DNA of 33,329 nucleotides, from contig MCFE01000822.1 in the NCBI GenBank assembly GCA_002104905.1, positions 1 through 33,329 on the forward strand, read 5' to 3'. A model generated the notes under the pieces. It worked only from the letters and a program-made list of their open reading frames with translations, did not search any database and was not told where the DNA came from. This document shows positions 1 to 24,319 of this stretch, piece by piece. A program made the position numbers and the translations under genes. The DNA is from Basidiobolus meristosporus CBS 931.73. Lineage: Eukaryota; Fungi; Basidiobolomycota. Positions within the stretch are counted from its first letter, which is position 1. The number at the start of each line of letters is the position of its first letter.

Positions 1-1446
1 TACGTACAAATTCTTCTTGGGAGTAAAGTCATTGGCGAAAGTATAACTTTAAAAAATGTTAAACAGTTCCACGGAATTACTCCTCATTGGAATGACAGTA
101 CTGTTGAACAGGCTGTTGGGAGAGTTATTCGCAGTGGTTCTCATGATATGTTGCCTGAAGAAGAACGTTATGTTGACATTTATATTTATGCTGCAGTTAC
201 ACCAGATAATAAAGGTGTCGACAAACTTAAACTTGAAATTTGCGCCCAGAAACAAATGGACATTGTTCATATGAAAAACAAACTTAAAGATGTTGCCGTT
301 GATAGATATATATTTCGCGAAGAACTCACTGAAAAGGATCTTGAGTTAGATATTACGACGTTTGTTTTATATTATGTGGATAAGTATATGAATTTATTCG
401 TCCAGAAGATACAGCTAATATTTAAAGACAAAACCTGGTTGTTTCTGTCTGATGTCTTAAATGCTTCTAATATTAACAAAATTATTTTTATGGAAGCTAT
501 TTACAAACTTATTACATCCAATGATAACAGAATCCATTCCGATAAATTTCTTAGAATCTCTGGTGATATTTTATATCTTACGTCTGATCCGCTTTTACCA
601 TTTGAATATGTTTGCGGAGCATTAACTTGGGAAACTCCTTCTCAACCAAAAGATATTTTTGAGAGAAAGGTTGAATATTTAGGATGGGATGAGTTAAACA
701 AATATAACGGCAAGGATCCTCTTGAAATTATACGGGCCATGCAACATATTAAAGATAAGATTTTATTTTTGGAATCTGCATTAATACATAAACGATATGA
801 TTTAATTTTGCCGTTATGGTTACTTTGGTATAAAGATGATCATAATACGTATTATCATATTATGTGTTATAGAGAAGAAGAAGTTGCGTATCGTGCATCT
901 AAACTTATTCCTAAAAAGCTTAGCGGTAAAACCAGAGTGTTTAGGAATGGTAAGTGGGCGTATTTAGATGGAGAGGACGAGAAACAAATAATGGAGGTTT
1001 TTACTGTTAGGTTTAATAATTTAAAATGTGACATTTCTAAGTATCCATTGTTTGGTTTTATATCTATATTAGATAATTATATGCGCATTAAAGTCGAATA
1101 TATGCGAAGAGGTTCTGATAAAGATAGAAGAATGGATCGGCGTGGAAGAAGTTTAACGTCTTTGAAAAAGATAGATTTGGCTGTTATATTGGCGCTTTTG
1201 CAAACTTTTGTAGAAAAACTTAATAACAGTCCGTCTACACATTTTGAGGTTAAAGAAACGGAAGATTTTATATGGAATAAATTAACACAAACGTATTGTT
1301 CATCTTTAGATCCATATGTTGATATTATTAAAGAACAAAATATATTAGATAGGATTTGGGTTACAATTAATAAATGGAATGCCAAAAAGATCAGAGAGTT
1401 AATAAATCATACACTTATGATATATAATTTATACATTATACTATAA
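1..1446 (+). CDS. D6/D11-like (VETF small subunit / NPH-I family) SF2 helicase, 5'-truncated by the window edge
   Basis: Frame 1 is open from base 1 (the ORF track starts it at 148). It reads LLGSKVIGESITLKNVKQFHGITPHWNDSTVEQAVGRVIRSGSHDMLPEEERYVDIY, which matches SF2 motifs V/VI (QxxGRxxR) in the form typical of NCLDV D6/D11 helicases. Ends TAA at 1446. Confidence 0.85.
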   Translation, partial: YVQILLGSKVIGESITLKNVKQFHGITPHWNDSTVEQAVGRVIRSGSHDMLPEEERYVDIYIYAAVTPDNKGVDKLKLEICAQKQMDIVHMKNKLKDVAVDRYIFREELTEKDLELDITTFVLYYVDKYMNLFVQKIQLIFKDKTWLFLSDVLNASNINKIIFMEAIYKLITSNDNRIHSDKFLRISGDILYLTSDPLLPFEYVCGALTWETPSQPKDIFERKVEYLGWDELNKYNGKDPLEIIRAMQHIKDKILFLESALIHKRYDLILPLWLLWYKDDHNTYYHIMCYREEEVAYRASKLIPKKLSGKTRVFRNGKWAYLDGEDEKQIMEVFTVRFNNLKCDISKYPLFGFISILDNYMRIKVEYMRRGSDKDRRMDRRGRSLTSLKKIDLAVILALLQTFVEKLNNSPSTHFEVKETEDFIWNKLTQTYCSSLDPYVDIIKEQNILDRIWVTINKWNAKKIRELINHTLMIYNLYIIL

Positions 1447-1504
1447 ATTAGGAGAGTTATATTTTTGTATTATATATTTAAATTATTTTTAAAAAGTTTT
1501 AAAT

Positions 1505-1605
1505 CTGATGTTTGATGTTTAAATTTAAATTTGATATTTGATTTTTGATGTTTAAAATTTAAATTTGATATTTGATGTTTGATGTTTGATATTTGATGTT
1601 TGAAT
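1505..1605 (+). repeat. Degenerate 7-bp tandem repeat (TTTGATG/TTTGATA)
   Basis: tttgatatttgatgtttgatgtttgatatttgatgtttga; the same motif occurs at 4645-4720 and, reverse-complemented, at ~13270, 14680-14765, ~17280 and 18525-18650. Confidence 0.85.
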
Positions 1606-1654
1606 TTTTAATTACGAAATTTGTTTTAAACATTGGGTTTGATTTAATGTTAAT

Positions 1655-1755
1655 TAAATATTTTCAAACGTTTGAATTTAATTGCAGTTAACATTAAATA
1701 TTTTCAGACGTTTGAATTTAGTTGCAATTAACAAAAAGTTTCCAAACGTTTAAGT
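1655..1755. repeat. About 2.5 copies of a 40-bp unit containing the palindrome TTCAAACGTTTGAA
   Basis: Perfect 14-bp palindrome at 1663-1676; variants TTCAGACGTTTGAA at 1703-1716 and TCCAAACGTTTAA at 1741-1753. Confidence 0.75.
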
Positions 1756-1893
1756 TGGTGTAAATAATATATATTTTTTAAAACTTTATTTATTATAACC
1801 ACTTGTCTTACTTATTTATCTATATTGTTTTATTATTTTATTGTATCTTTTCTCATTTATTCTCGTTACTTTTACTCTCTAAGTTTTTTAGTC

Positions 1894-4422
1894 ATGGACT
1901 GCTTTTTATACGATCTGCAATTGGTTTCTAACGCTCCCGTAATTATTCACGGATATGCTAAATATAATAACCAAACTATTTTACTTGTTATTCACGGGTT
2001 TAAACCTTGGTGTTATGTTGATCTTTCTCTTGCTAAAGTTAAAGACATCTGCCAATATCATGACATTCCTTATTTTAACGTCCAAGAAGTTTATATGCCA
2101 ACATCTCTCGCCATTAAAAATAAAAAATCTCTTATTAAAATTACTTTTATAAACTATTTGCACATGAAAGAATTTGTTCAACATGCTACCCCATTTTTAT
2201 GTTATATGTACGAACTTGAATGTATTCCAATTTTTACATCTAAATACGGCCTCGACTTTGTTGGTTGGGTCCAGATTAAAGATGCTTACACCAAACCCGA
2301 CGATTCTATTACCCATCTCCCAACTTATCATGTTTCTCATCCAACAAAAATATCACCCATCGATGGTAACGAGCCCACTTTCCCAACAGTTATGGCATTT
2401 GATATAGAATGTATGGTCTCTGCCAAATCTGGAATGCCCAAAACTTACAAACCTGGTGATAAGCTCGAGATGATTAGTATTGTTATGACCAATTACATGT
2501 CTGGCAAACTTGATAATTATCTCCTCTTTATCGGCGATCAACCTTTTGATGATCCCGCCTATGATAATGTCACCCAACTTTTTTTCTCTACCGAGGTTGA
2601 ACTTCTTCGAAAGTTTTGCTCTCTCATCCAAAGTTTGGATCCTGATATTATTACTGGATACAACATTTATGGCTTTGATTTTAAATATGTCTTTGAACGA
2701 TTAAGCTTTTATTTAGAACCTCTCCAAAATATGTCTCGACTTACTAATGGCTCTACTAACTTAGTTGATGTAGATTGGGAAAGTAGCGCGTATGGTTATA
2801 ACACTTATTGCAAAGTGGAAATGGATGGTCGCCTTATTGTCGATCTTATGCTTTACTTTAAACGTTTTAAACTCGAAAAATACAGTTTAGATTTTGTCTC
2901 TGAAAAATTTTTAGGTGTTGGCAAAGACGACGTCCATTATGAAGAAATATGGGATGCTTTCGAATCCAGGAACCCGTCTCAGATGAGTCTCGTCGGGAAA
3001 TATTGTGTCAAAGATTCTGCTCTTGTTATCCAACTATTTGAAAAGTTTAACTTGTGGACCGATCTTTGCGAAATGTCTAAAGCCATGAGATGCAGAATTG
3101 GTGAGATTTATACCCGTGGTGAACAACTTAAAGTCAAGAATCAAACCATCAAAGAGTGCATTAACCGAAATGTTGTTCTTGCCCAAATTCAGCGTAAAAA
3201 GAATACATGGGACAAATACAGTGGTGCCAATGTTTTGACCCCTGAACGTGGTATGTATAACCAATGTTGCGTTTTAGATTTCCAATCTTTGTATCCATCT
3301 ATCATGGTTGCTCATAATATTTGCCCGTCTGTTTACGTTAAGAATAAATTTACTACCAACAATGTTAACACTATAGATATGGGTACATACGAACACAAAT
3401 TCTTACAGTCACCTATTGGCATTCTTTCTGGTCTTGTTAAAAATTTAATGGATAAACGCAAAGAAGTTAAACTTAAAATTAAAAAACTGGACGAAAAAGA
3501 TATTTATACTAAACTTATTCTTGATCGTAGACAGAACGCACTTAAGATTTGTGCCAACAGTGTTTACGGTATCATGGGCTTTGAAAAGAATAAATATTTT
3601 GGCCATTTGGGTTGCGCCGAATCTATTACCCGTATGGGTAGAAAATATTTAGATCAGATTGTCACTCATATATCTGATAATTATCCAGTCAGAGTTATTT
3701 ATGGCGACACTGATTCCTGCATGGTTATTCCTACTTCTCCTATCCCCGCACCCGATTATATCCAATTGTGCCATGACATTTGCAAAGATGTTACCAGTAT
3801 GCTTCCTCAACCTATGGCACTTAACTTCGAAGAATACTATGACAAAATTATTCTTATGTCTAAAAAGAGATATATTATGTACAAGAATCAAACTCTTAAA
3901 TACAAGGGTGTTATGAATGCCCGACGAGGATATTGCCAATTTGCAAAAAATCTTTATAGCAGTACTATTACCGATATGGTTAACGATGTTCCCAAAGACC
4001 AGATTATTTCTAACGTTAATAAACATATTACAGATCTTCTGAGAAAAAATGTTCCCATTAATCTTTTAAGCATGACTAAATCTGTTAAAAATTTAGATGA
4101 ATACAAAGTCGAACCCCCTCAAGTTATCATGGCTAAACGATTAATAGCTAATGGTATAGAGGTAAATGCTGGCACTAGATTAGAATATGTTTTTACAACT
4201 TTGGGTGATAAACAAGGTGAAAAGATGTATATGCCTGAAGAGTTGGCAAGAATAGAAGGATTAGAAGTCGATCCTTTATATTATATGGAACATCAAATTA
4301 TGTCTCAGATAGATGATTTGTTGGGAATATTGGGTGAAGATAATTATATTAAACAGATGGTTAGATCGATGAAAAAGGCTGAACGATATGCAAAGAAATT
4401 AGAGCAAACGCAAACTGTATAA
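1894..4422 (+). CDS. polB: Family B DNA polymerase (viral), about 842 aa, no intein apparent
   Basis: ExoI AFDIECM, ExoII GYNIYGFDFKY, ExoIII YCVKD, region II DFQSLYPS, region III KICANSVYG, region I YGDTDS. First ATG is at 1894; the track start at 1825 is a TTG. Confidence 0.97.
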   Translation: MDCFLYDLQLVSNAPVIIHGYAKYNNQTILLVIHGFKPWCYVDLSLAKVKDICQYHDIPYFNVQEVYMPTSLAIKNKKSLIKITFINYLHMKEFVQHATPFLCYMYELECIPIFTSKYGLDFVGWVQIKDAYTKPDDSITHLPTYHVSHPTKISPIDGNEPTFPTVMAFDIECMVSAKSGMPKTYKPGDKLEMISIVMTNYMSGKLDNYLLFIGDQPFDDPAYDNVTQLFFSTEVELLRKFCSLIQSLDPDIITGYNIYGFDFKYVFERLSFYLEPLQNMSRLTNGSTNLVDVDWESSAYGYNTYCKVEMDGRLIVDLMLYFKRFKLEKYSLDFVSEKFLGVGKDDVHYEEIWDAFESRNPSQMSLVGKYCVKDSALVIQLFEKFNLWTDLCEMSKAMRCRIGEIYTRGEQLKVKNQTIKECINRNVVLAQIQRKKNTWDKYSGANVLTPERGMYNQCCVLDFQSLYPSIMVAHNICPSVYVKNKFTTNNVNTIDMGTYEHKFLQSPIGILSGLVKNLMDKRKEVKLKIKKLDEKDIYTKLILDRRQNALKICANSVYGIMGFEKNKYFGHLGCAESITRMGRKYLDQIVTHISDNYPVRVIYGDTDSCMVIPTSPIPAPDYIQLCHDICKDVTSMLPQPMALNFEEYYDKIILMSKKRYIMYKNQTLKYKGVMNARRGYCQFAKNLYSSTITDMVNDVPKDQIISNVNKHITDLLRKNVPINLLSMTKSVKNLDEYKVEPPQVIMAKRLIANGIEVNAGTRLEYVFTTLGDKQGEKMYMPEELARIEGLEVDPLYYMEHQIMSQIDDLLGILGEDNYIKQMVRSMKKAERYAKKLEQTQTV

Positions 4423-4807: not shown

Positions 4808-7452
4808 TTTTGTACAATGTCAGCGGATTTGTATATTATCATCTCTTTAATATGGTAACTACGACCCAACTTTGTAAATTATTAAAGATACAATAATTTG
4901 CATCCTGTTGTTGAATTTGTATAGCACCACCGTATTTGTATCTATATAAATTCTCTAATCTGGTAACTACGACTTAACTTTGTAAATTTATAAAGATACA
5001 AAAAATCGCTTCTTGTTGCCAAATTTATATAGTGTCATAGCATTTGTATTTTGAGAAATTCCCTAATCCGGTATTTACGACTAGGGTTTGTAAATTATTT
5101 AAGATACAATTATTTACACCTTGTTACCGATTTTGTACAGTGTCACCCCATTTGTATCTTTATAAATTCCCTAATCTGGTAACTACAACCCAACTTTGTA
5201 AATTATTAAAGATACAAAAATTCACACCTTGTTACCGAATTTGTATAGTGTCAGTGTATTTGTATCTTAGGGAATTCTCCAATCCGGTAACTACGACCTA
5301 ACTTTGCAAATTATTAAAAATACAATTATTTGCTCCTTGTTGTTAAGTTTGTATAGTGCTACCGCATTTGTATCTTAAGAAATTCCCTAATACAGTAATT
5401 GCGACCTAACTTTGTAAATTGTTAAAGATACAATTATTTACACCCTGTTACCGATTTTGTATAGTGTTACCGCATTTGTATCTTATGAAATTCCCTAATA
5501 CAGTAACTACGACCCAACTTTGTAAATTATTTAAGATACAATAATTCGCTTCCTGTTACTGAGTTTGTATAGTGTCACCCCATTTGTATCTCAAAAAATT
5601 CCCTAATCTGGTAACTACGACCCAACTTTGTAAATTATTAAAGATACAATAATTTGCATCTTGTTGTTGAATTTGTATAGTGTCACTGCATTTGTATCTT
5701 AAGGAAATTCCCTAATCTGGTAACTACGACTTAACTTTGTAAATTTATAAAGATACAATAATTTGCATCTTGTTACCGATTTTGTATAGTGTCACCCCAT
5801 TTGTATCTTAAGAAAATCCCTAATCTGGTAACTACGACCCAACTTTGTAAATTATTAAAGATACAATAATTTACTCCTTAATACTTATTTTGTACAGTGC
5901 CACCGTATTTGTATCTATATAAATTCCCTAATATGGTATTTACGACCTAACTTTGTAAATTGTTAAAGATACAAAAATTTACACCTTGTTACCGATTTTG
6001 TATAGTGCCACCGTATTTGTATCTTAATAAATTCTCTAATCCAGTAACTACGACCCGAAGTTGTAAATTATTAAAGATACAACATTTTACACCCTGTTAC
6101 CGATTTTGTACAGTACCAGTGTATTTGTATCTTATGAAATTCTCTAATCTGGTAACTACAACCCAACTTTGTAAATTATTAAAGATACAATAATTTACTC
6201 CTTAATACTTATTTTGTACAGTGTCATACTATTTGTATCTTTATAAATTCCCTAATCTGGTATTTACGACCCAACTTTGTAAATTGTTAAAGATACAATA
6301 ATTTACACCTTGTTACCGATTTTGTATAGTGCCACCTCATTTGTATCTTTATAAATTCCCTAATCTGGTATTTACGACCCAACTTTGCGAATTATTAAAG
6401 ATACAAAAATTTACACCCTGTTACCGATTTTGTATAGTGCCAGCGCATTTGTATCTTATGAAATTCTCTAATCCAGTAACTACGACCCGAAGTTGTAAAT
6501 TATTAAAGATACAATTATTTACTCCCTAATACTTATTTTGTACAGTGTCACCCCATTTGTATCTTTATAAATTCCCTAATACAGTAACTATGACCTAACT
6601 TTGTAAATTATTAAAGATACAATTATTTACACCCTGTTGTTGAATTTGTATAGTGTCATCGTCTTTGTATCTTAAGAAATTCCCTAATCTGGCAACTACG
6701 ACCTAACTTTGTAAATTATTAAAGATACAAAATTTTACTTCCTAATACTTATTTTGTATAGTGTCAGTGTATTTGTATCTTATGAAATTCCCTAATCCGG
6801 TAACTGCGACCTAACTTTGTAAATTATTAAAGATACAATTATTTACTCCCTAATACTTATTTTGTATAGTGTCACCTCATTTGTATCTTATGAAATCCCC
6901 TAATCTGGTAACTACGACCCAACTTTGTAAATTTTTAAAGATGCAATTATTTCTTCCTTGTCACCGATTTTGTACGGTGTCATCGTATTTGTATCTTAAG
7001 AATTCTCTAATCCAATAACTACGACCCAACTTTGTAAATATTAAAGATACAATTATTTACACCTTGTTGTTGAATTTGTATAATGTCAGTGCATTTGCAT
7101 ATTATAAATTCTCTAATCCAGTAATTGCGACCTAACTTTGTAAATATTAAAGATGCAAAAATTTACTCCCTGTTACTTATTTTGTATAGTGCCAGCAAAT
7201 TTGCATCTTAAGAAATTCCCTAATACAGTAACTATGACCCAGCCTTGTAAATATTAAAGATGCAATTATTTACACCCTGTTGTTGAATTTATATAATGTC
7301 ACTGCATTTGCATCTTATAAATTCCCTAATCCAATAACTATGACCCAACCCTGTAAATATTAAAGATGCAAAAATTTACATCCTGTTGTTGAATTTGTAC
7401 AGTGTCACCCCATTTGTATTTTTATAAATTCCCCAATCCGGCAACTATGCCA
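4808..7452. repeat. Tandem array of about 24.5 x 108-bp units, each with an internal inverted repeat (TTGTATCTT...AAGATACAA); non-coding
   Basis: The GGTAACTACGACC-like core recurs 25 times at 4854, 4962, 5070, 5178, 5286 ... 6907, 7014, 7120, 7227, 7333, 7440. Spacing is 108 bp (one 109; 106-107 in the last units). Stops occur in the reading frames examined. Confidence 0.97.
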
Positions 7453-7519
7453 AGTTTTGTCTTAAGTTATTTATACCACTTCTTATTTCTAAACCTCCGT
7501 TTCATCTCAACAACAAACT

Positions 7520-7640
7520 TTTTTTTCTCGACCCAAACTTAATCATCCAAAACTTTTCTCGACCCAAACCTTTTCCGACCCCCAAACTCTCTCGACCCAA
7601 ACTTTTTCCGACCCCCAAACTCTCTCGACCCAAACTTTTT
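7520..7640 (+). repeat. C/A-rich module repeat (TTTTCCGACCCCCAAACTCTCTCGACCCAAACT x2 plus partial copies)
   Basis: A 33-bp unit occurs twice at ~7571-7636; the same module recurs at ~14775-14808 and partly at ~12353-12380. Confidence 0.85.
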
Positions 7641-7766
7641 TCCAAATTAGTTTTTTATCTCTCCTACCCCCAAATTATTTTTGTTTTAACCACATTTTCT
7701 CGTTTCATCAACCATCCTTCTTATCTAATACCCTTTTTGACTCATCGTCTTATAAACTTCCATATT

Positions 7767-7777: not shown

Positions 7778-7789
7778 TTCTTTCTTATC

Positions 7790-8458
7790 ATGTCTCCCTA
7801 CATCTGGCTATCCCACCCCAACTCTAAAAATTATTCATATTGCGCCAATCTAACTTTTAATGGATGGCATCCTCTCAAAGATAATATCTCCAATTTAGTT
7901 ATTGGCCTCGTTAACCAATCATGCAGTAAAATCCTTTCACCTGACGATATTAATTCCCTTTACCAAAATCACCTACCTTTCGATCCTACCCACGTTGACG
8001 GCAACATTTACAAGTTTATTATCCAATCTATCGCCAACAATACTAATTACTCTCCTTATGTTAGCCAATGGTTTGACACTTATGATTCATGCTTCACCGC
8101 CATGAACGATTTTGACCCTCACACATCATCCCCCGTCTCCAAATCTATCGTTGATAATTTTAATACACCCTTATTTACTCATCCCCTCCCAGAACCTTTT
8201 ACATTTATGGTTGTCGGTATGAGATATTGCACTAACCATACCTTCTCCGTTGGTGACCTTGTTACATTAAACATAGTAGATAATAATCCCCACGATCCCA
8301 ACGCCGTTCAAGTCTTAGTTGATGACGTACATGTTGCCTACGTTTCTCGCAAAGATGCACCCAAACTTAGATCTATTGGCTTCGACAATAAACTTTGTAC
8401 TTGTTTAGAAGTTTACTACCGTAGTGCCAAATTTATACTTGAAGATATATTCTACTAA
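7790..8458 (+). CDS. Protein with a C-terminal HIRAN domain (222 aa)
   Basis: FMVVGMRY...VGDLVTLNIVDNNPHDPNAVQV...HVAYVSRKDA fits the HIRAN pattern (G..Y; L..E/DxxNxxDxNAIxV; GYV). N-terminal half unrecognised. Confidence 0.8.
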   Translation: MSPYIWLSHPNSKNYSYCANLTFNGWHPLKDNISNLVIGLVNQSCSKILSPDDINSLYQNHLPFDPTHVDGNIYKFIIQSIANNTNYSPYVSQWFDTYDSCFTAMNDFDPHTSSPVSKSIVDNFNTPLFTHPLPEPFTFMVVGMRYCTNHTFSVGDLVTLNIVDNNPHDPNAVQVLVDDVHVAYVSRKDAPKLRSIGFDNKLCTCLEVYYRSAKFILEDIFY

Positions 8459-13493: not shown

Positions 13494-14492
13494 TTAATTG
13501 CATCCTATTTTAACTTCATCTAATGTTTCATCATCTAAAAATATATTTTCGAACTCCTTTAGTTCATCGTTAGATAAATGTTTTATATATCTAATCTCAA
13601 AACGCTTGGATTTCTTTTCTAATATTTCTTTTAATCTATCTAATTTGCATCTTAAGTTTCCAAACTGCTGTAAAATTTTTTGTTCAGGTTTTTGTTCCAT
13701 ATTTTTGTTAAAATTCCAGACCAATCCTTTCAACTCTCGTTGTATCCTATCTAATCTTTGCCTTGATCTTCGTTCGTCCATTTTAAGTTTTAATCTGTAT
13801 TTTAAATCTTCTTCATATTTTTGCAACACCCTTTTTGATTCTTGTTTAGCCCGAATTAAATCATACTCCAACGTATCCAATTTCTCTTTTAATTGTTGGT
13901 CGGAATTAATTTTTAAATTTTGTATAAAATTATCGGTGTATTTATTATTTAATTCGTTGATTAATAAAAGAGTTTTTACGTAATCTTTGAGATTTGTTAT
14001 ATTAAATATATTACTGTTGTTATAATAAAATCCATCCCTAAACAATAATTTAATATCCCATTTAATGTTATTTAAAACATATAAATTACACCTTTCTGGT
14101 TTACTAAAATCGAGATCGGTTATAATAGTTAGTAATATCATTGCAAAGTGCAAATAACAAATAATAGTATTGTTTTTCTTTAATTCTGTTCGAAAAAAAC
14201 GCCATATTATTGGTAATAGTAACAAACACACTATTATTGCATATTTTTTATCGCTATCATACCAACTTGGATTCAACCAAACCTGCAAATACTTTCTGCG
14301 TTTAATTTTAAAATTAATAATCCAACATGTTGCATTTATTAAAATCAAAAACGCAATAATTACAAAACATGCAATAAATGTGTGTTTAGCAGATCCGCCT
14401 GGGTGAAATATTTGATTGTATAAAAGTGGTATATACAATATATAAATATATCTTCGACACAATCGTCCAATTTCGTAACTTAATTCTCCCAT
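13494..14492 (-). CDS. 4-TM/coiled-coil multigene family, copy 1 (332 aa)
   Basis: Shared motifs INATCWIINFKIKRRKYLQVWLNPSWYD, LNNIKWDIKL and RYIKHLSNDELKEFENIFLDD. Confidence 0.9.
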   Translation of the reverse strand: MGELSYEIGRLCRRYIYILYIPLLYNQIFHPGGSAKHTFIACFVIIAFLILINATCWIINFKIKRRKYLQVWLNPSWYDSDKKYAIIVCLLLLPIIWRFFRTELKKNNTIICYLHFAMILLTIITDLDFSKPERCNLYVLNNIKWDIKLLFRDGFYYNNSNIFNITNLKDYVKTLLLINELNNKYTDNFIQNLKINSDQQLKEKLDTLEYDLIRAKQESKRVLQKYEEDLKYRLKLKMDERRSRQRLDRIQRELKGLVWNFNKNMEQKPEQKILQQFGNLRCKLDRLKEILEKKSKRFEIRYIKHLSNDELKEFENIFLDDETLDEVKIGCN

Positions 14493-14679
14493 TGAGAAAG
14501 GGTTTTTTCGTATTATTAATATTATAACATAAATGTTGACATCAATAAGTTAATTGTATTTGATTTATTTGCGTAAATGGAATTAATAATTTATTGTTAT
14601 ATTATTTGTACATTTTTTGGCATTAAACCCGAAATAATTTTTTGCATTAAGATTTAAACTTTTTTAAAAAACATTTTTC

Positions 14680-14808
14680 AAATATCAAATTTAAATATCA
14701 AATTTCAAAAACCAAATTTAAAATTTAAAAATCAAAAATCAAATATCAAATATCAAATATCAAAATTAAAACTTTTTCCGACCCCCAAACTCTCTCGACC
14801 CAAACTTT
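14680..14808 (-). repeat. 7-bp (ATATCAA/AAATCAA) repeat followed by the CCGACCCCCAAACTCTCTCGACCC module
   Basis: aaaatcaaaaatcaaatatcaaatatcaaatatcaaaa, the reverse complement of the 1505 and 4645 repeats. Confidence 0.8.
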
Positions 14809-14809
14809 T

Positions 14810-15736
14810 TTAAACATCAAGATCTAAATTTTGACAAAAAACAATAATTTTATCACGTCTATAATATCTAAGATATAATTGCAGAATAAATATATTTTTA
14901 AATTCTTCGAGTTCGTCATCAGATAAATGTTTGATGTATTTAAAATTAAAAAGTTTGGATTCCTGTTCAAGAATTTCTCGTTTGTGTTCCCGTTCTATAG
15001 TTGTTAAATTACGTTCAAACTTTTCGTATTCCTGATTTACATTTTGTAAATTTTGTTCCAATTGTTGCTTTAATACGTAATTTATTTCATGCCCAGCATT
15101 CTGGTTGTATTCTTGATCGAACTTATGTTTTAAATTATTAAACTTTTGTCTAAATTGTTGTTTATATTTGTCTGGATAATCATATTTTCCAGATAAATAA
15201 GCGTCCACATAAAGTCTAAGGCGTTCTATGTTTTTAATATTAGCGCTACCAAATTTGACCTCATCAGAATAAGAGATTTTAATATCCCAGTTAATACTAT
15301 TTAATATAGGCAAATTATACTTATTTAAAGTAATAAATTCGCAAAAAAACATTGCGTATATAGCTACTAAACTACATGCAAAATGCATATAATAAAAAAT
15401 AAACCATATAAAACCCAATTCCTTTTGATAACCACAACAAAGTATATACACCAATAATAACGTAAAAATTAGTCCATATTTGTAACTTCCATCATACCAA
15501 CATGGATTTAACAAAACTTGCAAAGATTTGCGACGTTTAAGTTTATGATTAATTATTCAACAAAATGCGTCTATCAAAATAACAGCCAAATACAGAATTA
15601 ACCAAACGATATTACAATTAATTTCAAACTTATACATGCATAAAAATCCAAAATTAAGTATGAAAACATGGTATCTGGCATCTATAATATTAATATGCTT
15701 TACCAAACTTGTAATTGTATGCGCCGAAAGTATCAT
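14810..15736 (-). pseudogene. 4-TM/coiled-coil family, copy 2, with a premature TGA at the conserved Trp
   Basis: ATG at 15736 is in frame with the 14810-15523 ORF. The sequence reads IDAFC*IINHKLKRRKSLQVLLNP where paralogues have DATCW; the TGA is at 15557-15559. The C-terminus also diverges after KHLSDDELEEFKNIF. Confidence 0.85.
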
Positions 15737-16043
15737 CGAAAAAAAGTATTTTTCGTATTGTTAAAACCATAAACTAGTTGTACATATTAATCTTTTTTAC
15801 ATCAAAAAATTATGCACGCTTATATTAAATTTTATACGCATTAACTTTATATTAATATTTTTGTTTCAAGATTTAAATTTTAACCACTCCCAAAAAACTT
15901 TAACCCCAACAACCAAACTTTTTTAAAAAAACTAATTTTATCCAAAAATAAACAACTTAATCATACAAAAAACATTCTTGATTTAAACATAATAACTCAT
16001 CTTTCTATTTTTTAACGCAACAAATATATCCAATCGTATACTA

Positions 16044-17024
16044 TTATATTTTGCCTGATGCTTCATCATCTAAAAGTATATTTTTAAATTCTTCCAATTC
16101 ATCATTGGATAAATGTTTTATATATCTAACGGTAAATTTTTTAGTTTTTTCTAATATTTCTTTTAACCTATCTAATTTGCATCTTAAATTACCAAACTGT
16201 TGTCTAATTTTTTGGTCAAGTTTTTGTTCTAAATCTCCGTTAAAATTCCACACCAATTCTTTTAGTTCTCGTTGTATATTCTTTAATCTTTGCTCCGATT
16301 TTTGCAGATCTATTTTAGCCTTTATTCTATATTTCAAAACTCCTTCGTATTCTTGCAAAAATATCTTTAATTCTTGTTTAATTCGAATTAAATCTTGTTC
16401 TGAGTTATACGATTTTTCTTTTAATTGTTGATCAGAATTGGTTTCCAAATTTCGTATAAAATCATCCGTATATTTGCCGTTCAACTCTTCTATTAACAAA
16501 AAAATTTCTGCATACCTTTTAAGCTTTATTATGTTCTGAATTGTATTGTCACCCGAAAAGGCTCCGTCTTTAAACAATAAGTTGATATCCCAATTAATGT
16601 TATTTAGAATAAATAAATTATAATTTCCCAGTTTTTTACGTTCCATATACCCTACAATATCTAATAATACCATTAACAAATATAAACAACAAGTACAAAT
16701 TGTATTTGTATGTAATTTTACCCAAAACAGACTCCAGATTACAGGTAATATTAATATAGAATTTAACATTACGTAGTTTTTGTATTCATCATACCAACAT
16801 GGATTTAACAAAACTTGCAAATACTTTCTGCGTTTAATTTTATAATTAATTATCCAACATGTTGCAGATATTAAAATATAAAACGCGATGTGCAAAAACC
16901 GTGCAATAAATGTATAATTATTGAATTTCGTTGAACGAAATACGTCAACGTATAAATCAAGTATATAATATGCAGGAAGATATATTCGACAAAAATGTCC
17001 AAATGCGTAAGTTAATTTTCCCAT
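16044..17024 (-). CDS. 4-TM/coiled-coil multigene family, copy 3 (326 aa)
   Basis: ISATCWIINYKIKRRKYLQVLLNPCWYD ... RYIKHLSNDELEEFKNILLDD. Confidence 0.9.
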   Translation of the reverse strand: MGKLTYAFGHFCRIYLPAYYILDLYVDVFRSTKFNNYTFIARFLHIAFYILISATCWIINYKIKRRKYLQVLLNPCWYDEYKNYVMLNSILILPVIWSLFWVKLHTNTICTCCLYLLMVLLDIVGYMERKKLGNYNLFILNNINWDINLLFKDGAFSGDNTIQNIIKLKRYAEIFLLIEELNGKYTDDFIRNLETNSDQQLKEKSYNSEQDLIRIKQELKIFLQEYEGVLKYRIKAKIDLQKSEQRLKNIQRELKELVWNFNGDLEQKLDQKIRQQFGNLRCKLDRLKEILEKTKKFTVRYIKHLSNDELEEFKNILLDDEASGKI

Positions 17025-17400
17025 TGTAAACGTCTGTTTTTTCGTATAATTTTAGTATTATAAAAAACTGTAAATCTCAATAATTCTATTATAATTATTA
17101 TATTATTCGAACGTCAAACTCGAACCTCAAGATTAAAATTTTTTTTAATAATTTTAAACCAAGTTAGAACCTCAAGATCCAAAGTTTTTGTCGAATAAAA
17201 ATAGTTAAACAATATTTGAACCTCAAGATTAAAACTTTGTCATCCTAAAAAACTTTTTTAAAAAACATTTTCCAAATATCAAATATCAAAAACCAAAGTC
17301 TAAACGATAAACCAAAATTTATATCTTCCTTTCAAGATTTAAACGTGTTCTTAGTCATCCCGATTTTTTTACATCTAAAAATATATCTAATTGTATACTG

Positions 17401-18372
17401 TTATATTTTGTCTGATGCTTCATCATCCAAAAATATGTTGTTGAACTCCTCTAATTCATCATTGGATAAATGTTTTATATATCTAACGGTAAATTTTTTA
17501 GTTTTTTCTAATATTTCTTTTAACCTATCTAATTTGCATGTTAAATTCACAAATTGCCGTTTAATTTTTACATCAAGTTTTTGTTCTAAATTTGTGTTAA
17601 AATTCCAATCTACTTCGACCAGTTCTTGTCGTATATTCTTTAATCTTTGCTCTGATTTTTGTTGGTCTATTTTAACCTCTACTCTACGTTCCAAAATTTT
17701 TTTATATTCTTGCAAGACTCTTTTTAATTCTTGTTTAGCCAAATTCAAATCATACTCTAACGTATTTAATTTGTCTTTTAATTGTTGATCAGAATTGTTT
17801 TCCAAATTTTGTACAAAATTATCGGCATATTTGTTACCCAATTTATTTATTAACAAAACGGTTGTTACGTAATCTTTAAGTTCTATTATCCTATATATTG
17901 TACTGTTACCAATATTCCATCCATCAAAAAGCAATAGTTTAATATCCCAGTTAATGTTATTTAGAATAAATAAATTGTATTTCCCATATTTAATATAATA
18001 GAGATCGGCTGAAATCGATGAAACAATCATCCATAAATATGTATAGCACATAAGGGGTATTTCGGCACGTTTTTTTATTTGATAAAAATACCATATTACA
18101 GGTAGCAATAATATCAAACTTGGTATTGCATTTCTTTTATTCCCATCATACCAACTCGGATTTAACAAGACTTGTAAATGTTTACGGCGTTTAATTTTAT
18201 AATTAATTATCCAACATGTTGCATCTATAAAAACAAAAAGCGCTAAATTTAACAAAATTGCATAAATAGTATAACTACCCAAATTAAATGTATAAATATG
18301 TAACATTGGTATCCCTAATATATAAACATATTTTTTTAAAATTTCCCCAAATGCATATGTTAATTCCCCCAT
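17401..18372 (-). CDS. 4-TM/coiled-coil multigene family, copy 4 (323 aa from the ATG at 18372)
   Basis: MGELTYAFG start matches the paralogues; IDATCWIINYKIKRRKHLQVLLNPSWYD ... RYIKHLSNDELEEFNNIFLDD. Confidence 0.9.
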   Translation of the reverse strand: MGELTYAFGEILKKYVYILGIPMLHIYTFNLGSYTIYAILLNLALFVFIDATCWIINYKIKRRKHLQVLLNPSWYDGNKRNAIPSLILLLPVIWYFYQIKKRAEIPLMCYTYLWMIVSSISADLYYIKYGKYNLFILNNINWDIKLLLFDGWNIGNSTIYRIIELKDYVTTVLLINKLGNKYADNFVQNLENNSDQQLKDKLNTLEYDLNLAKQELKRVLQEYKKILERRVEVKIDQQKSEQRLKNIRQELVEVDWNFNTNLEQKLDVKIKRQFVNLTCKLDRLKEILEKTKKFTVRYIKHLSNDELEEFNNIFLDDEASDKI

Positions 18373-18524
18373 TATAAGTGCTTTTTGTATTATCAAGACT
18401 TTACTATAACTGTAAATATCGATAATTATAACATCAAATTTTCGCACGTTTAAATGTTTAACTCAAATTACCAGTTGTGTTTCAAAATTAATTATTTTGC
18501 AAATCTTTTTTAAAAAACATTTTT

Positions 18525-18650
18525 CAAATATTAAATATCAAAAATCAAATATCAAAAATCAAACATCAAAAATCAAATTTCAAAAATCAAATATCAAATA
18601 TCATATTTAAAATTCGAATTTAAAAACCAAGTTTAAATATCAAAAACCAA
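18525..18650 (-). repeat. 7-bp (ATATCAA/AAATCAA) tandem repeat
   Basis: aaatatcaaaaatcaaatatcaaaaatcaaacatcaaaaatcaaatttcaaaaatcaaatatcaaatatc. Confidence 0.85.
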
Positions 18651-18755
18651 AGTCTAAACGATAAACCAAAATTTATATCTTTCTTTCAAGATTTAAACGT
18701 GTTCTTAGTCATCCCGATTTTTTTTACATCCAAAAATATATCTAATTGTATACTG

Positions 18756-19742
18756 TTATATTTTGTCTGATGCTTCATCATCTAAAAATATGTTGTTGAA
18801 CTCCTCTAATTCATCGTTAGATAAATGTTTTATATATCTAATAGTAAAGTCTTTAGATTTCTTTTCTAATATTTCTTTTAACCTATCTAATTTGCATGTT
18901 AAATTCACAAATTGCCGTCTAATTTTTACATCAAGTTTTTGTTCTAAATTTGTGTTAAAATTCCAATCTACTCCGACCAGCTCTTGTCGTATATTCTTTA
19001 ATCTTTGCTCTGATTTTTGTTGGTTTATTTTAACCTCTACTCTACGTTCCAAAACTTTTTTATATTCTTGCAAGACCCTTTTTAATTCTTGTTTAGCCAA
19101 ATTCAAATCATACTCTAACGTATTTAATTTGTCTTTTAATTGTTGATCAGAATTGGTTTCCAAATTTTGTACAAAATCGTCAACATATTTGTTACCCAAT
19201 TTGTTTATTAACAAAAAAGTTTTTACGTAATCCTTAAGTTGTGTTATATTATTTATCGTACTGGAACCAAAATAAAGCCCATCTTTAAACGACAATTTAA
19301 TAGCCCATTTAATGTTATTTAGAATAAATAAATCATATCTTCCCAATTTAATAGATTCCATATCTATCATAGCTTGTGATAGAACAACTAAAATTATCGA
19401 ATAACAATGGCAGGCTAAACTTGTTCCTAGTTTTATTTGGAAAATGTGCCATATTACTGGTAATATTAATATCAAATTTATTATTGCATATTTTTTATTG
19501 CTATCATACCAACTCGGATTTAACAAAACTTGCAAATGTTTTCTACGCAGAACTTTGTAATTAACTATCCAACATGTTGCAGATATTAAAATATAAAACG
19601 CAATGTGTAAAAACCATGCAAAAGATATGAAAGTATCGTATTTTTTTGTTGTATTAAATACCTGAATGTATAAATAAAATACGAAAAATGCACATGAATA
19701 TTTTTGGACAAATTGTCTAAATGCGTAACTTAATTCTGCCAT
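18756..19742 (-). CDS. 4-TM/coiled-coil multigene family, copy 5 (328 aa from the ATG at 19742)
   Basis: MAELSYAF start; ISATCWIVNYKVLRRKHLQVLLNPSWYD; C-terminal half nearly identical to copy 4. Confidence 0.9.
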   Translation of the reverse strand: MAELSYAFRQFVQKYSCAFFVFYLYIQVFNTTKKYDTFISFAWFLHIAFYILISATCWIVNYKVLRRKHLQVLLNPSWYDSNKKYAIINLILILPVIWHIFQIKLGTSLACHCYSIILVVLSQAMIDMESIKLGRYDLFILNNIKWAIKLSFKDGLYFGSSTINNITQLKDYVKTFLLINKLGNKYVDDFVQNLETNSDQQLKDKLNTLEYDLNLAKQELKRVLQEYKKVLERRVEVKINQQKSEQRLKNIRQELVGVDWNFNTNLEQKLDVKIRRQFVNLTCKLDRLKEILEKKSKDFTIRYIKHLSNDELEEFNNIFLDDEASDKI

Positions 19743-20254
19743 TGAGAAAGTTTTTTTTCGTATATTATTAATAATATGAAAAATGTGAATACCAATCATT
19801 AAGAATTATAACACAACTTTTATTTTTTGTTAAGTTTGCGCTAATACTTTTTGTATCAAAGTTTAATTCCAATTATTCAAACGTCAAACTCGGACTTTAA
19901 AAATAAAACTTTTGTCGAATAAAAATAGTTAAACAATATTTGAACCTCAAGATCCAAAGTTTTTGTCCAAGAAAAAATGGTTAAACCGGATTTGAACCTC
20001 AAGATTAAATTTTTTGCCCGAGAAAAATATTCAAACCAAACTTAAACCTATAAATAAAAACTATAATAGTTTGCATAATACTTTCACATAACCATTTGAT
20101 TATATAATCTCAAAGACAAATAAAAAAATATTTTCCACAAACCCCGAGAAAATTTTTGTTTAAGAATTAAATCGGAGTCTGTAAATTAATATTTTATTAT
20201 TGTCCAAAAATGGCATTTAAACCCTTACAACCATTTTGTTATGAATATTAACAT

Positions 20255-21253
20255 TTAGATGTTATAATGCTTTTTGAGAGCTCCCCTAAATGCTTTCCAA
20301 GTATACGGAATTATCGTGTCTTTTACTACCGATATTATCCCGTCAGAATTGGAATAGATTTCTCCAATGTCCGTCATGGCTTTGTTTAAAAGGTCCATAT
20401 TTGTTTCTTTAGGACTAAACTCGCCATCTACGAAACTATTTTTCCCCAATGTCGAGTCACCATCCGAGAAAAAAGTATCATCCAAAGTCTGTTCGTATGT
20501 TATGTACAAACTTTTATCAGATTTTGGTTCGTCTGCAAAAAGAATATTTGTTTCCAAAGTTGGCTCCTTGGTTAAAGAAATATTTATGTTTAACGGCTGC
20601 TTTTCTGTTATATAAATATTTTCTTTTAATGTTGACTTCTCGATCGTAGAAATATTTTCCTCCAAACCCGATCTGTCAACAGTCGAAATATTTATATTAG
20701 ATTCGTCAACCGTTGGAATATTTCTCTCTAAACCCGATCCGTCAACCGCAGAAATATTTTTTTCCAAACTCGGATTTTTAAGTGACGAAAAAATATTTCC
20801 CAATCCGAGTTTATGGCATGAAGAAATATTAGTTTCTGCAATTGGTTCGTCGGATGATAAATTGGTTTTGTCATCACACTTATCATCCGACAACCTTTCT
20901 TCTTGCAAATTTTTTTGTAGATTTTGAGAATTTGTATTAATAACAGATTGCAATTCTTCTTCTGTATATAGGTAATGTTCTATTAATGCGACGTAAGTCT
21001 GTGCAACCTTTGATATATGATACCCGCAATATTCTGAATCTTGTTTGACTTTGCGGCCGCATTTAGAACCTTTATTATGTCCGGTGGTTATTATAGCAAT
21101 ACATTTACAACTTTTCGCAGATTTGTCTGGATTATATTCTTGTTTGGCTAATATGGCATTTTTTGCATTGCAAATATGAAGTATACATTGGTTAAACCTT
21201 TCGGTTATATCGCTTTCAAGTTCGGCAAATAACTTCTGAATCTCGAATTCCAT
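20255..21253 (-). CDS. Hypothetical protein with an N-terminal CCCH-type zinc-finger-like motif and an acidic degenerate ~12-aa repeat tail (332 aa)
   Basis: CIAIITTGHNKGSKCGRKVKQDSEYCGYH (C-x13-C-x10-C-x2-H), a motif style common in giant-virus proteins; repeats LEKNISAVDGSG, LERNIPTVDESN, LEENISTIEKST. Confidence 0.75.
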   Translation of the reverse strand: MEFEIQKLFAELESDITERFNQCILHICNAKNAILAKQEYNPDKSAKSCKCIAIITTGHNKGSKCGRKVKQDSEYCGYHISKVAQTYVALIEHYLYTEEELQSVINTNSQNLQKNLQEERLSDDKCDDKTNLSSDEPIAETNISSCHKLGLGNIFSSLKNPSLEKNISAVDGSGLERNIPTVDESNINISTVDRSGLEENISTIEKSTLKENIYITEKQPLNINISLTKEPTLETNILFADEPKSDKSLYITYEQTLDDTFFSDGDSTLGKNSFVDGEFSPKETNMDLLNKAMTDIGEIYSNSDGIISVVKDTIIPYTWKAFRGALKKHYNI

Positions 21254-21562
21254 AGTTAGTTAACTCGCGAGTTAATCCGATATTTGATTTAAAATCAGGT
21301 GATAATAGAGAATATTTATATAACATAAATGGTACAGGTAATAGGAACTAATACTACAAAATAAATGAAAAAAGTCTGGTTTACTTATTTAGGCAGGCGC
21401 ATCCTTGACCAGTCAATAAAAAAAACTTTTTTAAAAAATTTTTTCGCCAAACATTTTTTTTTGCAAATTTAATTCTGGTGAGTTTAGTTTAGTATATTAT
21501 CCACATTTTTTTAACAACCCGTTTTTAACTTGAAAACTTTTTTCTACACCGTAAATAACCAA

Positions 21563-21928
21563 ATCTCAACTTAAAACTTTTTTTATAAACCGTAAATAAT
21601 CTGATCTCAACGACAGACTTTTAACCTTTATTCTTAATTTTTAAACTTTAACTAATCCGATCTCAACTTAAAACTTTTTTTATAAACCCTAAATAATCTG
21701 ATCTCAACGACAAACTTTTAACCTCTATTCTTAATTTTTTAAACTTTAACCAATCTGATCTCAACTTAAAATTTTTTTATAAACCCTAAATAATCTGATC
21801 CCAACGACAAACTTTTAACCTTTATTCTTAATTTTTTAAACTTTAACTAATCTAATCTCAACGACAAACTTTTAACCTTTACCCTTAATTTTTAAACTTT
21901 AACTAATCTAATCTCAACGACAAACTTT
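21563..21928 (+). repeat. Two-subunit tandem repeat, A (~41 bp) and B (~56 bp), order ABABABBB(partial)
   Basis: Subunits start with ATCTCAAC at 21563(A), 21604(B), 21660(A), 21701(B), 21758(A), 21798(B), 21855(B) and 21911(B, partial). Confidence 0.9.
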
Positions 21929-22108
21929 TGTTAAACTCGTCTTCGACCATTTTTTTATTTTTGGCCCGAAACTTTTTTAAAAATAATTCTCAAACGTTAA
22001 ACTCTAATTATTATTTAATATTCAAACTTAACTGAGATAAAATTTTTTGCAAGTAGTTAGTTGGTTCAAGATTTAAACTTTGCAAAAAACTTTTTTTAAA
22101 AATAGTTT

Positions 22109-22750
22109 TTATAAGTTTGTATCATCCAAAAATATTCTTTTAAATTCTTTTAATTCATCATCTGATAAATGTTTAATAATTCGGAAAGGTTGGTTAGGAT
22201 ATTCTTGCATTATTTCTTGCAAACTTTTAGATAAATTTTTACGAATAATTTGTGTTAATATTTTTAATTTAGATATTAATGCACTATCATGAAGATCAGA
22301 AGGAGATAAATTAATATCCCAATTAATATTATCCAATAATACAAAATTATATATATTAGAGGTTTCGCATTTTTCGCATAAAAATATAATTATATAACAT
22401 ATAATAATTATATAAAGACATGTTTTTTGCAATTTGGGTGTTTCCGGAAGATTATAATATACCATAAGTAAAAAACCTAAAAGTAAAAGTATTCCATGTT
22501 TTTTATTTCCATCATACCAACGTGGATCTAGCAGGACTTGTAAACGTTTGCGACGTTTAATTTTGTAATTAACAACCCAGCAAGTTGCATCTATTAAATC
22601 AACGCATATAAAAAATATTATACCAAGAATACCTGTGCCAACAATTGGTTCATATGATGTTCCCAATAAAAGTGCAAATCCATGTTTCATGTCAAATACA
22701 TAATAAAATGCATAACAAAAATACGTTTTTAAAGAACCCATTTTTTTCAT
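22109..22750 (-). CDS. 4-TM/coiled-coil multigene family, copy 6, short and divergent (213 aa)
   Basis: IDATCWVVNYKIKRRKRLQVLLDPRWYD, LDNINWDINL and RIIKHLSDDELKEFKRIFLDD; most of the coiled coil is absent. Confidence 0.88.
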   Translation of the reverse strand: MKKMGSLKTYFCYAFYYVFDMKHGFALLLGTSYEPIVGTGILGIIFFICVDLIDATCWVVNYKIKRRKRLQVLLDPRWYDGNKKHGILLLLGFLLMVYYNLPETPKLQKTCLYIIIICYIIIFLCEKCETSNIYNFVLLDNINWDINLSPSDLHDSALISKLKILTQIIRKNLSKSLQEIMQEYPNQPFRIIKHLSDDELKEFKRIFLDDTNL

Positions 22751-24319
22751 GTTATTAAAACTATTAAGATATTGTTGTTATCAATAACTAACTTATAAAG
22801 TCTATATGTTTATACACAAATAATAAAATTTTTTGTTATATATACGACGTCTTTAACGCAAGACTTAAAATTATTTGTTTAGTATAATTTTAGTTGTTTC
22901 AACAAAGTTTGTCGTTTCGAAAAAGTTTTTTTATTTTTGTTTCAAGATCTAAACTTGGATTATCCCCAACAACATTTTCCGAATTAACTTTTTCCAGCGT
23001 TAAACCCAAAAATTATTATTTGTTAAACCTAAACTCGGTCAGAACAAAAAACTTTTTTAAAAATAATTCTTAACGACAAAACTTTTTCACGATTAGTTAA
23101 TTGCTTGAGAAGTGTAATTCAATGAAGGCAAGTCATATTCTATGAAATGTTCTGTATAGATCAAAGGCATCTGAATTTGGCGGACAAGTAGGTCCAATCA
23201 CAGACACCCCTTGAGGCCAGGGTTCAATTTGCCTGTTAGGTAAGGTACGCTCATTTGGTCAATGGCGCATTGGTATATTCTAGTATTAGATAGTGTGCAA
23301 CAAATAGACTATCTATGGCCTTTTGTGGACCAAGGTACATTCTTGCGGATTTGATGCCGCTTTATTTGGAATTAATACTACACAGTCACCAGCCCAGATA
23401 GGGAAGATTGCGAAAATAGAAATGGCTTGAGATGCTTGGAGTGAAGTGACTGACTCCGAAGTGCCACTGGAATACCTCCAGCCAGTACCCTGGTGCATGG
23501 ATCCGGCGGCTCATTACGCAATATGTAAAGAGTGGATAAATCAATACCGAAGAATAAAAGGAAGGCTGTCAACTGATGAGCAATTCTTGCCATAGACGCA
23601 CTATAAATTGAGGAGTGTTGCTTGACAAACGTTGTACTACTTTCCACTCTCCAAAAGCCTCACCGTTAAGCCGATTATTCCGCCTACAAGGTCTCCGCTA
23701 CCCAGCCTTGCATCTGGAGCTTGCCATTCTGCAAAGTGTTGCTACGCTCACTTGACTTCCGGCTCGTTTCCGATCATCTCTGAATGCCAGGCCACGGACG
23801 TAAAGCCAATGTATCAATTGTATTGACGAGAAATGTAGCGTGGAATAAAACGTTTGCCAGTGATATTAAGTATTTTTTGGGAGAAGTAAATTAGAAATGA
23901 ACAATCCTTAGGTGGATTAATGCATTTGGGTAAGAGACAGGCAAAAATCAATACCAAAACGCAAGAGAATTAGCATTTACATCAATAGTGGTATTTTCTT
24001 CCTATTGCCAAGGATATACCAGCCAAGGCTCATATATGTGAGCGCTGGTGGTTTGCAATTGGCAAGATTTTCTAATATGGTGGTTTGCGCTTGTAATGAA
24101 ATAATGTTATAAATCAATGTGATGATGTTGCTGGCCTTGACGTGGAAAACTGTTGGCATTACAACAGCAGTATAGCAGCCTACAGCTAGTACTGTATAAT
24201 GCTACTGCACCAGTTTACCAAATGGGATTTCCTTTTGCTACCTCCCCTTGCACCATTCCTATATTCCACTGTAGAAATACCCCAATTTATTTGCTTACCC
24301 ACTACTACCTTGGGTGTTC

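What the first reader, a model, noticed from the sequence alone, without database searches (positions are those of the whole stretch)
1..23110. Giant-virus genome segment joined directly to fungal-like chromosome
Seen: D6/D11-like helicase, PolB and MutS7 in AT-rich DNA, then an abrupt switch at ~23,090-23,110 to sequence holding a copia relic, solo LTRs and a PTR2 gene. Established: these genes are Nucleocytoviricota markers, and giant endogenous viral elements occur in eukaryote genomes, while giant viruses of fungi are poorly known. Inference: this is one edge of a largely intact integrated giant virus. Only two lesions are visible among 12 viral genes. I cannot assign the viral order or the host species from sequence alone.
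Basis: partly seen in the sequence, partly recalled or inferred. Interest (0 to 1): 0.85.

Follow-up and report, generated by a model that had tools for sequence, protein, structure and literature searches.

The report
Known giant-virus relative in Basidiobolus fungus
A 23-kb piece of a giant-virus relative lies beside fungal DNA in a Basidiobolus contig that a 2020 paper already mapped; it is likely a recent insertion, though the join itself is untested, and the viral group may lack a capsid.

Summary
A D6/D11-type helicase, PolB and MutS7 sit in AT-rich DNA that switches at about 23,102 to host repeats, a copia relic and a PTR2 gene. The PTR2 is 100% identical over 463 aa to a Basidiobolus meristosporus protein. 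The locus is not new: Gong et al. 2020 (PMC7017919) list this PolB and map a 33,329-bp contig with these genes as a Pithovirus-related 'fundsalphavirus'. It is not filed under Mycodnaviridae. The viral DNA looks young: 10 of 12 ORFs show no lesion, and CpG o/e is 1.17 against 0.07 in the copia relic. The join is unproven. No listed contig bridges it, it falls in a viral spacer next to a multicopy host repeat, and one viral contig had depth 24 against 81-224 for host pieces. 'Largely intact giant virus' is unsupported: only 23 kb is present, with no capsid gene. New leads: MutS7 is linked to PolB across the clade; relatives' contigs reach only 93-137 kb and carry RNA polymerase, capping and HET genes, but no capsid, A32 or VLTF3 was found; HIRAN and MutS7 have no G at 499 four-fold sites.

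The parts
1..1446 (+). C-terminal 481 aa of a D6/D11-like SF2 helicase, cut by the contig start
   Evidence: Pfam Helicase_C E 5e-5, NPHI_C E 0.0014; 31-35% identical to helicases in 5 of 20 related loci
1894..4422 (+). Family B DNA polymerase, 842 aa, single ORF, no lesion seen
   Evidence: Pfam; 55% to best hit; 105-member clade, support 1.0; AlphaFold pLDDT 92; contains the published hit 1945-4329
4808..7447 (.). Tandem array, 24.5 copies of 108 bp, about 83% alike, with a 28-bp imperfect palindrome; no long ORF; possible replication origin (inference)
7790..8458 (+). 222-aa gene: N-terminal piece of a clade-conserved protein plus a HIRAN domain
   Evidence: HIRAN E 3e-6; clusters with ORFs of 8 related loci
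8631..12048 (+). MutS7 (domains I, III, IV, V, C-terminal HNH) split by a frameshift at about 10,516-10,560; about 360 extra nt with 8 x 33-bp repeats lie just before it
   Evidence: relatives have a median of 927 aa and 45-55% identity
12731..13147 (-). 138-aa ORF with a hydrophobic C-terminus, no family hit
13494..19799 (-). Five paralogs of a lineage-specific, predicted membrane plus coiled-coil protein (13494-14492, 14810-about 15,700 with an in-frame stop, 16044-17024, 17401-18372, 18756-19799)
   Evidence: only 4 outside homologs, on 3 Logan contigs
20255..21253 (-). 332-aa ORF with a Cys/His cluster, no family hit above cut-off
22109..22750 (-). Sixth, shorter paralog of the family; last viral gene
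   Evidence: tblastn
22751..23109 (.). Viral-type spacer ending at the junction (change-point 23,102)
   Evidence: motif copies elsewhere in the viral part
23110..24130 (.). Multicopy host repeat of unknown class; the listed other copies are about 85-93% alike
   Evidence: tables 2, 5, 8; no Pfam hit
24131..28420 (-). CpG-depleted Ty1/copia-type relic: high-copy start, 348-bp repeat pair, integrase and SH3 remnants
   Evidence: CpG 11 observed against 152 expected
30199..31817 (+). Host PTR2 peptide transporter, one of 14 near-identical cluster members, frameshifted near 31,625

Best explanation
The left 23.1 kb is a segment of a 'fundsalphavirus', a Nucleocytoviricota-related DNA element of non-Dikarya fungi, and it is likely a recent insertion into a repeat-rich Basidiobolus meristosporus chromosome region, with the join itself untested. 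The element is predicted to replicate and transcribe itself in the cytoplasm, because relatives carry PolB, D5 primase, FEN1-like nuclease, ligase, RPB1/2/5, TFIIS and a capping enzyme. It likely reached the chromosome by illegitimate end joining or transposon-associated rearrangement rather than site-specific integration: the break falls inside an ordinary spacer, next to a host repeat. It would then decay, as the two short PolB scraps among retrotransposons in the same species appear to have done. It may be present in only part of the nuclei.
For: Shown: host identity (100% over 463 aa); PolB groups with PolBs from Mortierella, Linnemannia, Podila, Bifiguratus and Clydaea assemblies (support 1.0); sharp change-point; youth of the viral DNA, with CpG 587 observed against 504 expected while the copia relic has 11 against 152 and no CpG excess among repeat differences (p 0.87 and 0.44); short-read contigs carry the viral DNA with 0 differences over 446 nt (X1, possibly the source sample); neighbourhood gene set of relatives. 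From papers: the reference assembly is PacBio (PMC7466969 passages), which makes a pure repeat-collapse join less likely (my inference); Gong 2020 lists two further, 468-612-nt PolB fragments among retrotransposons on 93- and 137-kb contigs of the same species and two in B. heterosporus, so this lineage does enter Basidiobolus chromosomes. An in-frame stop in one paralog is a substitution, not a long-read indel.
Against: No listed contig bridges the junction. The host side I could examine is multicopy (flank repeat, copia, 14-member PTR2 cluster), the setting where false joins arise. The one long viral contig in X1 has depth 24 against 81-224 for 7 listed host-repeat pieces; this is only a hint, since contig depth is no copy number and that stretch is 24% GC. 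The contig begins inside the unique helicase gene and both MutS7 and PTR2 carry frameshifts, as a thinly covered long-read contig would. Lack of CpG loss fits non-integrated DNA as well as recent insertion. A paralog can gain a stop in a free virus too.
Confidence: 0.6

Rival explanations
1. The virus-like DNA is a free, low-copy episome or co-sequenced virus in the culture, and the assembler (or one chimeric long read) joined it to a host repeat.
For: Depth 24 against 81-224 (weak); contig starts in mid-gene; frameshifts on both sides; junction abuts a multicopy repeat; no methylation footprint; relatives occur as gene-dense contigs without host DNA in the stretches fetched (coding 0.65-0.94 in 17 loci).
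Against: Long-read assembly; decayed insertions of the same lineage elsewhere in the species; GC bias can lower short-read depth (general knowledge).
Confidence: 0.27
2. The join is real but runs the other way or lies inside a larger unit: the element captured host repeats and a PTR2 copy, or host transposons broke up a larger provirus that resumes further on.
For: The break is mid-spacer, with no terminal repeat or hairpin seen; in run X5 short matches to the same spacer motif stop at 23,086-23,090 and go on in other AT-rich letters; PTR2 is amplified to 14 near-identical members, several on 14-23-kb contigs; relatives carry HET-domain genes (4 of 12 loci).
Against: 10 kb of host-type DNA follows with no return to viral sequence; the copia relic lost its CpGs long before any capture.
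Confidence: 0.1
3. The genes are cellular (divergent Pol delta and MSH) or come from a bacterial or eukaryotic contaminant.
For: Best solved-structure hit is yeast Pol delta; several JGI hits are auto-named 'DNA polymerase delta'. My tree held no cellular Pol delta.
Against: 251 bits to Pol delta against 931 bits to the best clade member; no C-terminal zf-C4pol hit; MutS has the HNH tail of MutS7; relatives sit among D5, RPB and capping genes; published trees place this PolB and helicase with viruses.
Confidence: 0.02

Closest known systems
Fundsalphaviruses (Gong, Zhang and Han 2020, PMC7017919)
   Same: [quoted passage not shown] Same shared gene set in relatives (D5, D6/D11 helicase, RPB1/2/5, methyltransferase, UDG).
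   Different: In the parts I read, the paper treats these as fossils and does not discuss the junction, intactness, MutS7 identity, the gene family, the array, environmental relatives or the missing capsid.
Pithovirus-like viruses (order Pimascovirales)
   Same: Sister group in the published DNAP tree; Pithovirus LCPAC104 PolB ranks 2 of 500 in the fold search; own RNA polymerase; divergent MCP hard to detect (PMC9546926 passage).
   Different: Only 25% identity, no better than other viral PolBs; compact 842-aa PolB; MutS7; fungal hosts; contigs under 140 kb, whereas pithovirus genomes are several hundred kb (recalled).
Mycodnaviridae (Myers et al. 2026, PMC13533422)
   Same: Giant-virus DNA integrated in early-diverging fungi, in part recent or latent.
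   Different: Found by MCP-bearing contigs, mostly zoosporic hosts, placed near Imitervirales and Algavirales; the paper calls earlier fungal EVEs, citing Gong among them, distinct and distant and has 0 mentions of Basidiobolus in its main text.
MutS7 (mimivirus, epsilonproteobacteria, octocoral mtMutS)
   Same: Domains I, III, V plus C-terminal HNH (definition in PMC3166940 passages).
   Different: Frameshifted here, with repeat insertions; belongs to a tight clade of about 927-aa proteins linked to this PolB type.

Membership tests
Fundsalphavirus | PolB falls in the clade of fungal endogenous DNAPs | tested here: met
   105-member clade, support 1.0, with Bifiguratus, Mortierella, Podila and Linnemannia proteins; the published list holds a hit at matching coordinates
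Fundsalphavirus | Flanking D6/D11 helicase, D5, RPB1/2/5, methyltransferase | tested here: met
   Helicase in the window; the others only in related loci, not in the 23 kb held here
Nucleocytoviricota | Viral-type PolB and SF2 helicase, intronless gene-dense DNA | tested here: met
   coding share only 64% in the window, 65-94% in 17 relatives
Nucleocytoviricota | Double jelly-roll major capsid protein, A32 ATPase, VLTF3 | tested here: inconclusive
   None in the window; 0 of 95 ORFs from 12 related loci, which cover only up to 10 kb each side of PolB; whole records could not be searched; none of the 14 host species appears in the published MCP or A32 trees
Pimascovirales / Pithoviridae-like | Marker-gene phylogeny with named references | not testable with these tools
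   No named reference sequences could be fetched; rests on Gong 2020 and a non-discriminating fold search
Mycodnaviridae | MCP-bearing contig | tested here: not met
   No MCP in the window; the paper's MycoCosm search found one non-zoosporic hit, Dimargaris
Mycodnaviridae | Placement in MY_02 by concatenated markers | not testable with these tools
   No reference set; its S6 Fig and S1 Table are pictures and could not be read
Giant endogenous viral element | Reads spanning the virus-host junction | tested here: inconclusive
   Only short-read contigs were available; none of the listed pieces bridges it
Giant endogenous viral element | Coverage equal to the host's | tested here: inconclusive
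   24 against 81-224, confounded by 24% GC and repeats
Giant endogenous viral element | Terminal repeats or target-site duplication; empty site in another strain | not testable with these tools
   Other end missing, no genome held; X3 and X5 gave no host flank
Giant endogenous viral element | Decay or methylation footprint of residence | tested here: inconclusive
   2 lesions in 12 ORFs; CpG o/e 1.17, no CpG transition excess
MutS7 | MutS I, III, V plus C-terminal HNH | tested here: met
   (HNH E 0.0095, below cut-off; the HH-N-CxxCH motif is visible in the translation); motif in 49 of 83 closest hits by a strict pattern
Cellular DNA polymerase delta | Closest relatives Pol delta; C-terminal Cys motifs | tested here: not met

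The most novel reading that the evidence does not exclude
Fundsalphaviruses are not fossils of giant virions but a living, widespread class of capsid-less, roughly 60-140-kb Nucleocytoviricota-derived episomes of walled fungi. They keep their own polymerase, primase, RNA polymerase, capping and MutS7 repair genes, pass from cell to cell like mycoviruses, reach high copy number in some Basidiobolus isolates, and now and then become fixed in chromosomes. This contig would be such an event caught very early.
Probability: 0.3. Interest if true: 0.85.

Novelty: already known. Interest (0 to 1): 0.42.

Why it matters
It still offers a cultured fungus with an almost undamaged piece of a viral lineage known only from sequence. 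That makes an open question testable: are these elements still active, and do they make particles? If they prove capsid-less, they would be a giant-virus lineage that gave up the virion for a plasmid-like life in fungi, and capsid-based surveys would have missed them.

Tried and rejected
No whole genome is held, so the other end and an empty site could not be sought. Run search: 7 runs listed, no RNA holder listed. In one search, 22,876-23,048 had no cover in X1 and 22,556-23,059 none in X2, and at several flank positions no contig carried the window's own letter; contigs drop variants and a filter removes records, so I draw nothing from this. A depth-24 piece at about 23,049 first looked like a bridge, but it matches a 22-nt motif inside the same viral contig; rejected. 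X3 gave two pieces of 35-83 nt at depth 3-5: no conclusion. Read-laying covered only 22,430-24,300, so the MutS7 and PTR2 frameshifts remain unchecked against reads. My first guess, Mycodnaviridae, was dropped. Whole-record capsid search failed. The Atlas gave nothing. The six-copy family had no Pfam or NCBIfam hit near a cut-off, a weak model (pLDDT 63) and no fold match at E 0.001 or better. Three conserved neighbour families (A4-A6) had no useful PDB hit. CpG-biased mutation in viral repeats: not significant (one of three tests p 0.064). No strong hairpin at the junction (-6.5 kcal/mol over 140 nt). The deposited MutS model skips about 9,870-10,515 as an intron, but relatives align on to about 10,007-10,037, so I read that intron as a likely annotation patch. 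Earlier findings of this scan: none returned.
Full report
Observation. The window has two compositional halves: 30% GC for 1-23,100 and 38-43% beyond. A 4-mer model trained on each side puts the change at 23,102, range 23,080-23,108. The left half holds 12 ORFs covering 64% of it: a helicase cut by the contig start, PolB, a HIRAN gene, MutS7 in two frames, two orphans and six paralogs of one family. A 24.5 x 108-bp array lies at 4,808-7,447. Two lesions are visible, a MutS7 frameshift and an in-frame stop in one paralog. The right half holds a multicopy repeat from about 23,110, a copia-type relic and PTR2. Solo LTRs were not confirmed; one 348-bp repeat pair flanks the integrase remnants.

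Host. PTR2 residues from 30,232-31,620 are 100% identical to a Basidiobolus meristosporus protein. It is one of 14 cluster members, all from that species, and the window's copy is frameshifted near 31,625.

Virus. PolB has 545 hits at E 1e-20 or better among 4,301 candidates; the best are unnamed contigs (55%, 49%), and named ones come from Mortierella, Linnemannia, Podila, Bifiguratus and Clydaea assemblies. In a FastTree of 137 sequences (the window, the 120 listed hits, 16 IMG/VR ORFs; 760 columns) it falls in a 105-member clade with support 1.0 that holds all those fungal proteins. The tree had no named Pithovirus or Pol delta. Pol delta scores 251 bits against 931 for the best relative. 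The fold search ranks Pithovirus LCPAC104 second at 25% identity, no clear margin over other viruses.

Prior art. Gong et al. 2020 (PMC7017919; I read main-text parts 1-2 of 3, supplement parts 2, 5, 6, 7 of 7 and passages of the rest) named this lineage fundsalphavirus, found it in 14 fungi and placed it next to Pithovirus sibericum. Their Table S1 lists a B. meristosporus DNAP at 1945-4329, inside this PolB, and their gene map shows a 33,329-bp contig with PTR2, MutS_III, POL and Helicase_C. So the virus-plus-PTR2 arrangement is in print. The term occurs in 1 paper of the library. Myers et al. 2026 (PMC13533422; abstract, Results part 1 of 2, Discussion, passages) describe a different clade; their S1 Table and S6 Fig are pictures that I could not read and may bear on Basidiobolus markers. 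Searches (listings only, plus passages of PMC9546926, PMC13524828 and PMC12142844) showed no paper on this junction or on a capsid-less reading. Subscription journals are not covered.

Is the join real? For: the reference assembly is PacBio (PMC7466969 passages), and the same species has two short PolB scraps among retrotransposons on long contigs. Run X1 holds the viral DNA with 0 differences over 446 nt, but may be the source sample. Against: no listed contig bridges the junction; the host side examined is multicopy; the viral contig has depth 24 against 81-224 for 7 host pieces, a weak hint given 24% GC; the contig starts in mid-gene. The break lies in a spacer motif that recurs in the viral part, and a joint in X2 marks the host repeat as starting by 23,110, so this is probably not a viral terminus (inference). 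I put a true join at about 0.7 (0.6 simple insertion, 0.1 capture or internal break) and a false join at about 0.27.

Age. Viral DNA has 587 CpGs against 504 expected; the copia relic, 1 kb from the junction, has 11 against 152. Differences among viral repeat copies show no significant CpG excess. If joined, the element arrived after the copia relic was eroded and has not been methylated for long (inference; host CpG methylation is inferred from the depletion, not measured).

How the element likely works. A degenerate motif scan of metagenomes gave 20 loci, 17 with a strong PolB match and coding density 0.65-0.94. Of 95 ORFs from 12 of them, Pfam found D5, RPB1, RPB2, RPB5, capping enzyme, UDG and helicase, and HET domains in 4 of 12 loci, which points to fungal hosts (the host inference is mine). 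FEN1-like nuclease, ligase and TFIIS were added. This is the kit of a virus that copies and transcribes itself in the cytoplasm (established knowledge of Nucleocytoviricota). MutS7 belongs to the clade: 13 exact contig lengths are shared between 102 PolB hits and 82 MutS hits (the closest hits of each list only). The six-copy family has 4 outside homologs on 3 short contigs among 1.84 billion representatives; it is predicted helical with 1-3 hydrophobic segments and a coiled coil, and a host-interaction role is a guess from its position and expansion.

Capsid question. No MCP, A32 or VLTF3 hit was found in the window or in the 95 ORFs. None of the 14 host species appears in Gong's MCP and A32 trees, built from hits at E 0.01. 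Myers found one non-zoosporic MCP hit in 2,543 MycoCosm genomes. Of the 102 PolB contigs, 36 are 30 kb or longer and none exceeds 92.7 kb; the longest of the 82 MutS contigs is 137 kb. Against: I saw at most 10 kb each side of PolB, metagenomic contigs may be fragments, and Pithoviridae MCPs are hard to detect. In run X5, which shares a species label with X1 but gave no host flank, short matches to the family gene and spacer lie on contigs of depth 2,449-2,876 and one of depth 6; without a host baseline this is a lead only.

Unexplained. HIRAN and MutS7 have 0 G at 499 four-fold degenerate sites, and MutS7 is 95% C or T there; among 67 long ORFs of relatives the lowest G share is 0.027 and the highest C+T share 0.59. 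Nearby spacers are G-poor too, and the skew fades to the right of 12.5 kb. It starts beside the 108-bp array, which suggests a replication-linked strand bias (inference, untested).

Verdict. Real feature, already catalogued; likely a recent insertion, join unproven; not shown to be giant or near-complete. Interest 0.42, mainly for the testable capsid-less and activity leads.

Noticed in passing
window 7,448-12,730: Extreme strand bias: 0 G at 499 four-fold sites in HIRAN and MutS7, spacers G-poor as well; far outside 67 ORFs of relatives.
   Followed up: partly
window 4,808-7,447: 24.5 x 108-bp non-coding array with an imperfect 28-bp palindrome; one unit is 109 bp; possible origin.
   Followed up: partly
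window 30,199-31,817: PTR2 is one of 14 near-identical cluster members in B. meristosporus, several per contig and several on short contigs; this copy is frameshifted.
   Followed up: partly
run X5 laid on window 22,505-22,598 and 23,030-23,090: Short matches to related virus-like contigs at depth 2,449-2,876 and one at depth 6, with no host flank.
   Followed up: no
L092:1728-2606, L093:6218-7825, L099:11379-13232, L100:1337-2881: HET (heterokaryon incompatibility) domain genes beside PolB in 4 of 12 related loci; may interfere with fungal non-self recognition (guess).
   Followed up: no
window 23,110-24,130: Unclassified multicopy host repeat with mild CpG loss (o/e 0.65), unlike the copia relic next to it.
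   Followed up: partly
window 9,059-9,157 and 10,081-10,342: In-frame 24-bp and 33-bp tandem repeats expand MutS7 well beyond the 927-aa median of relatives.
   Followed up: partly
protein P0092: A clade PolB is also annotated in a eukaryote gene set (id SM000343S12824; I recall this prefix as the alga Spirogloea, not checked), so hosts may extend beyond fungi.
   Followed up: no
L094:8555-12052, L095:8669-12415: Some relatives' PolBs carry long insertions (1,166-1,249 aa); hits of similar length have an intein-type Pfam, PF14890.
   Followed up: no
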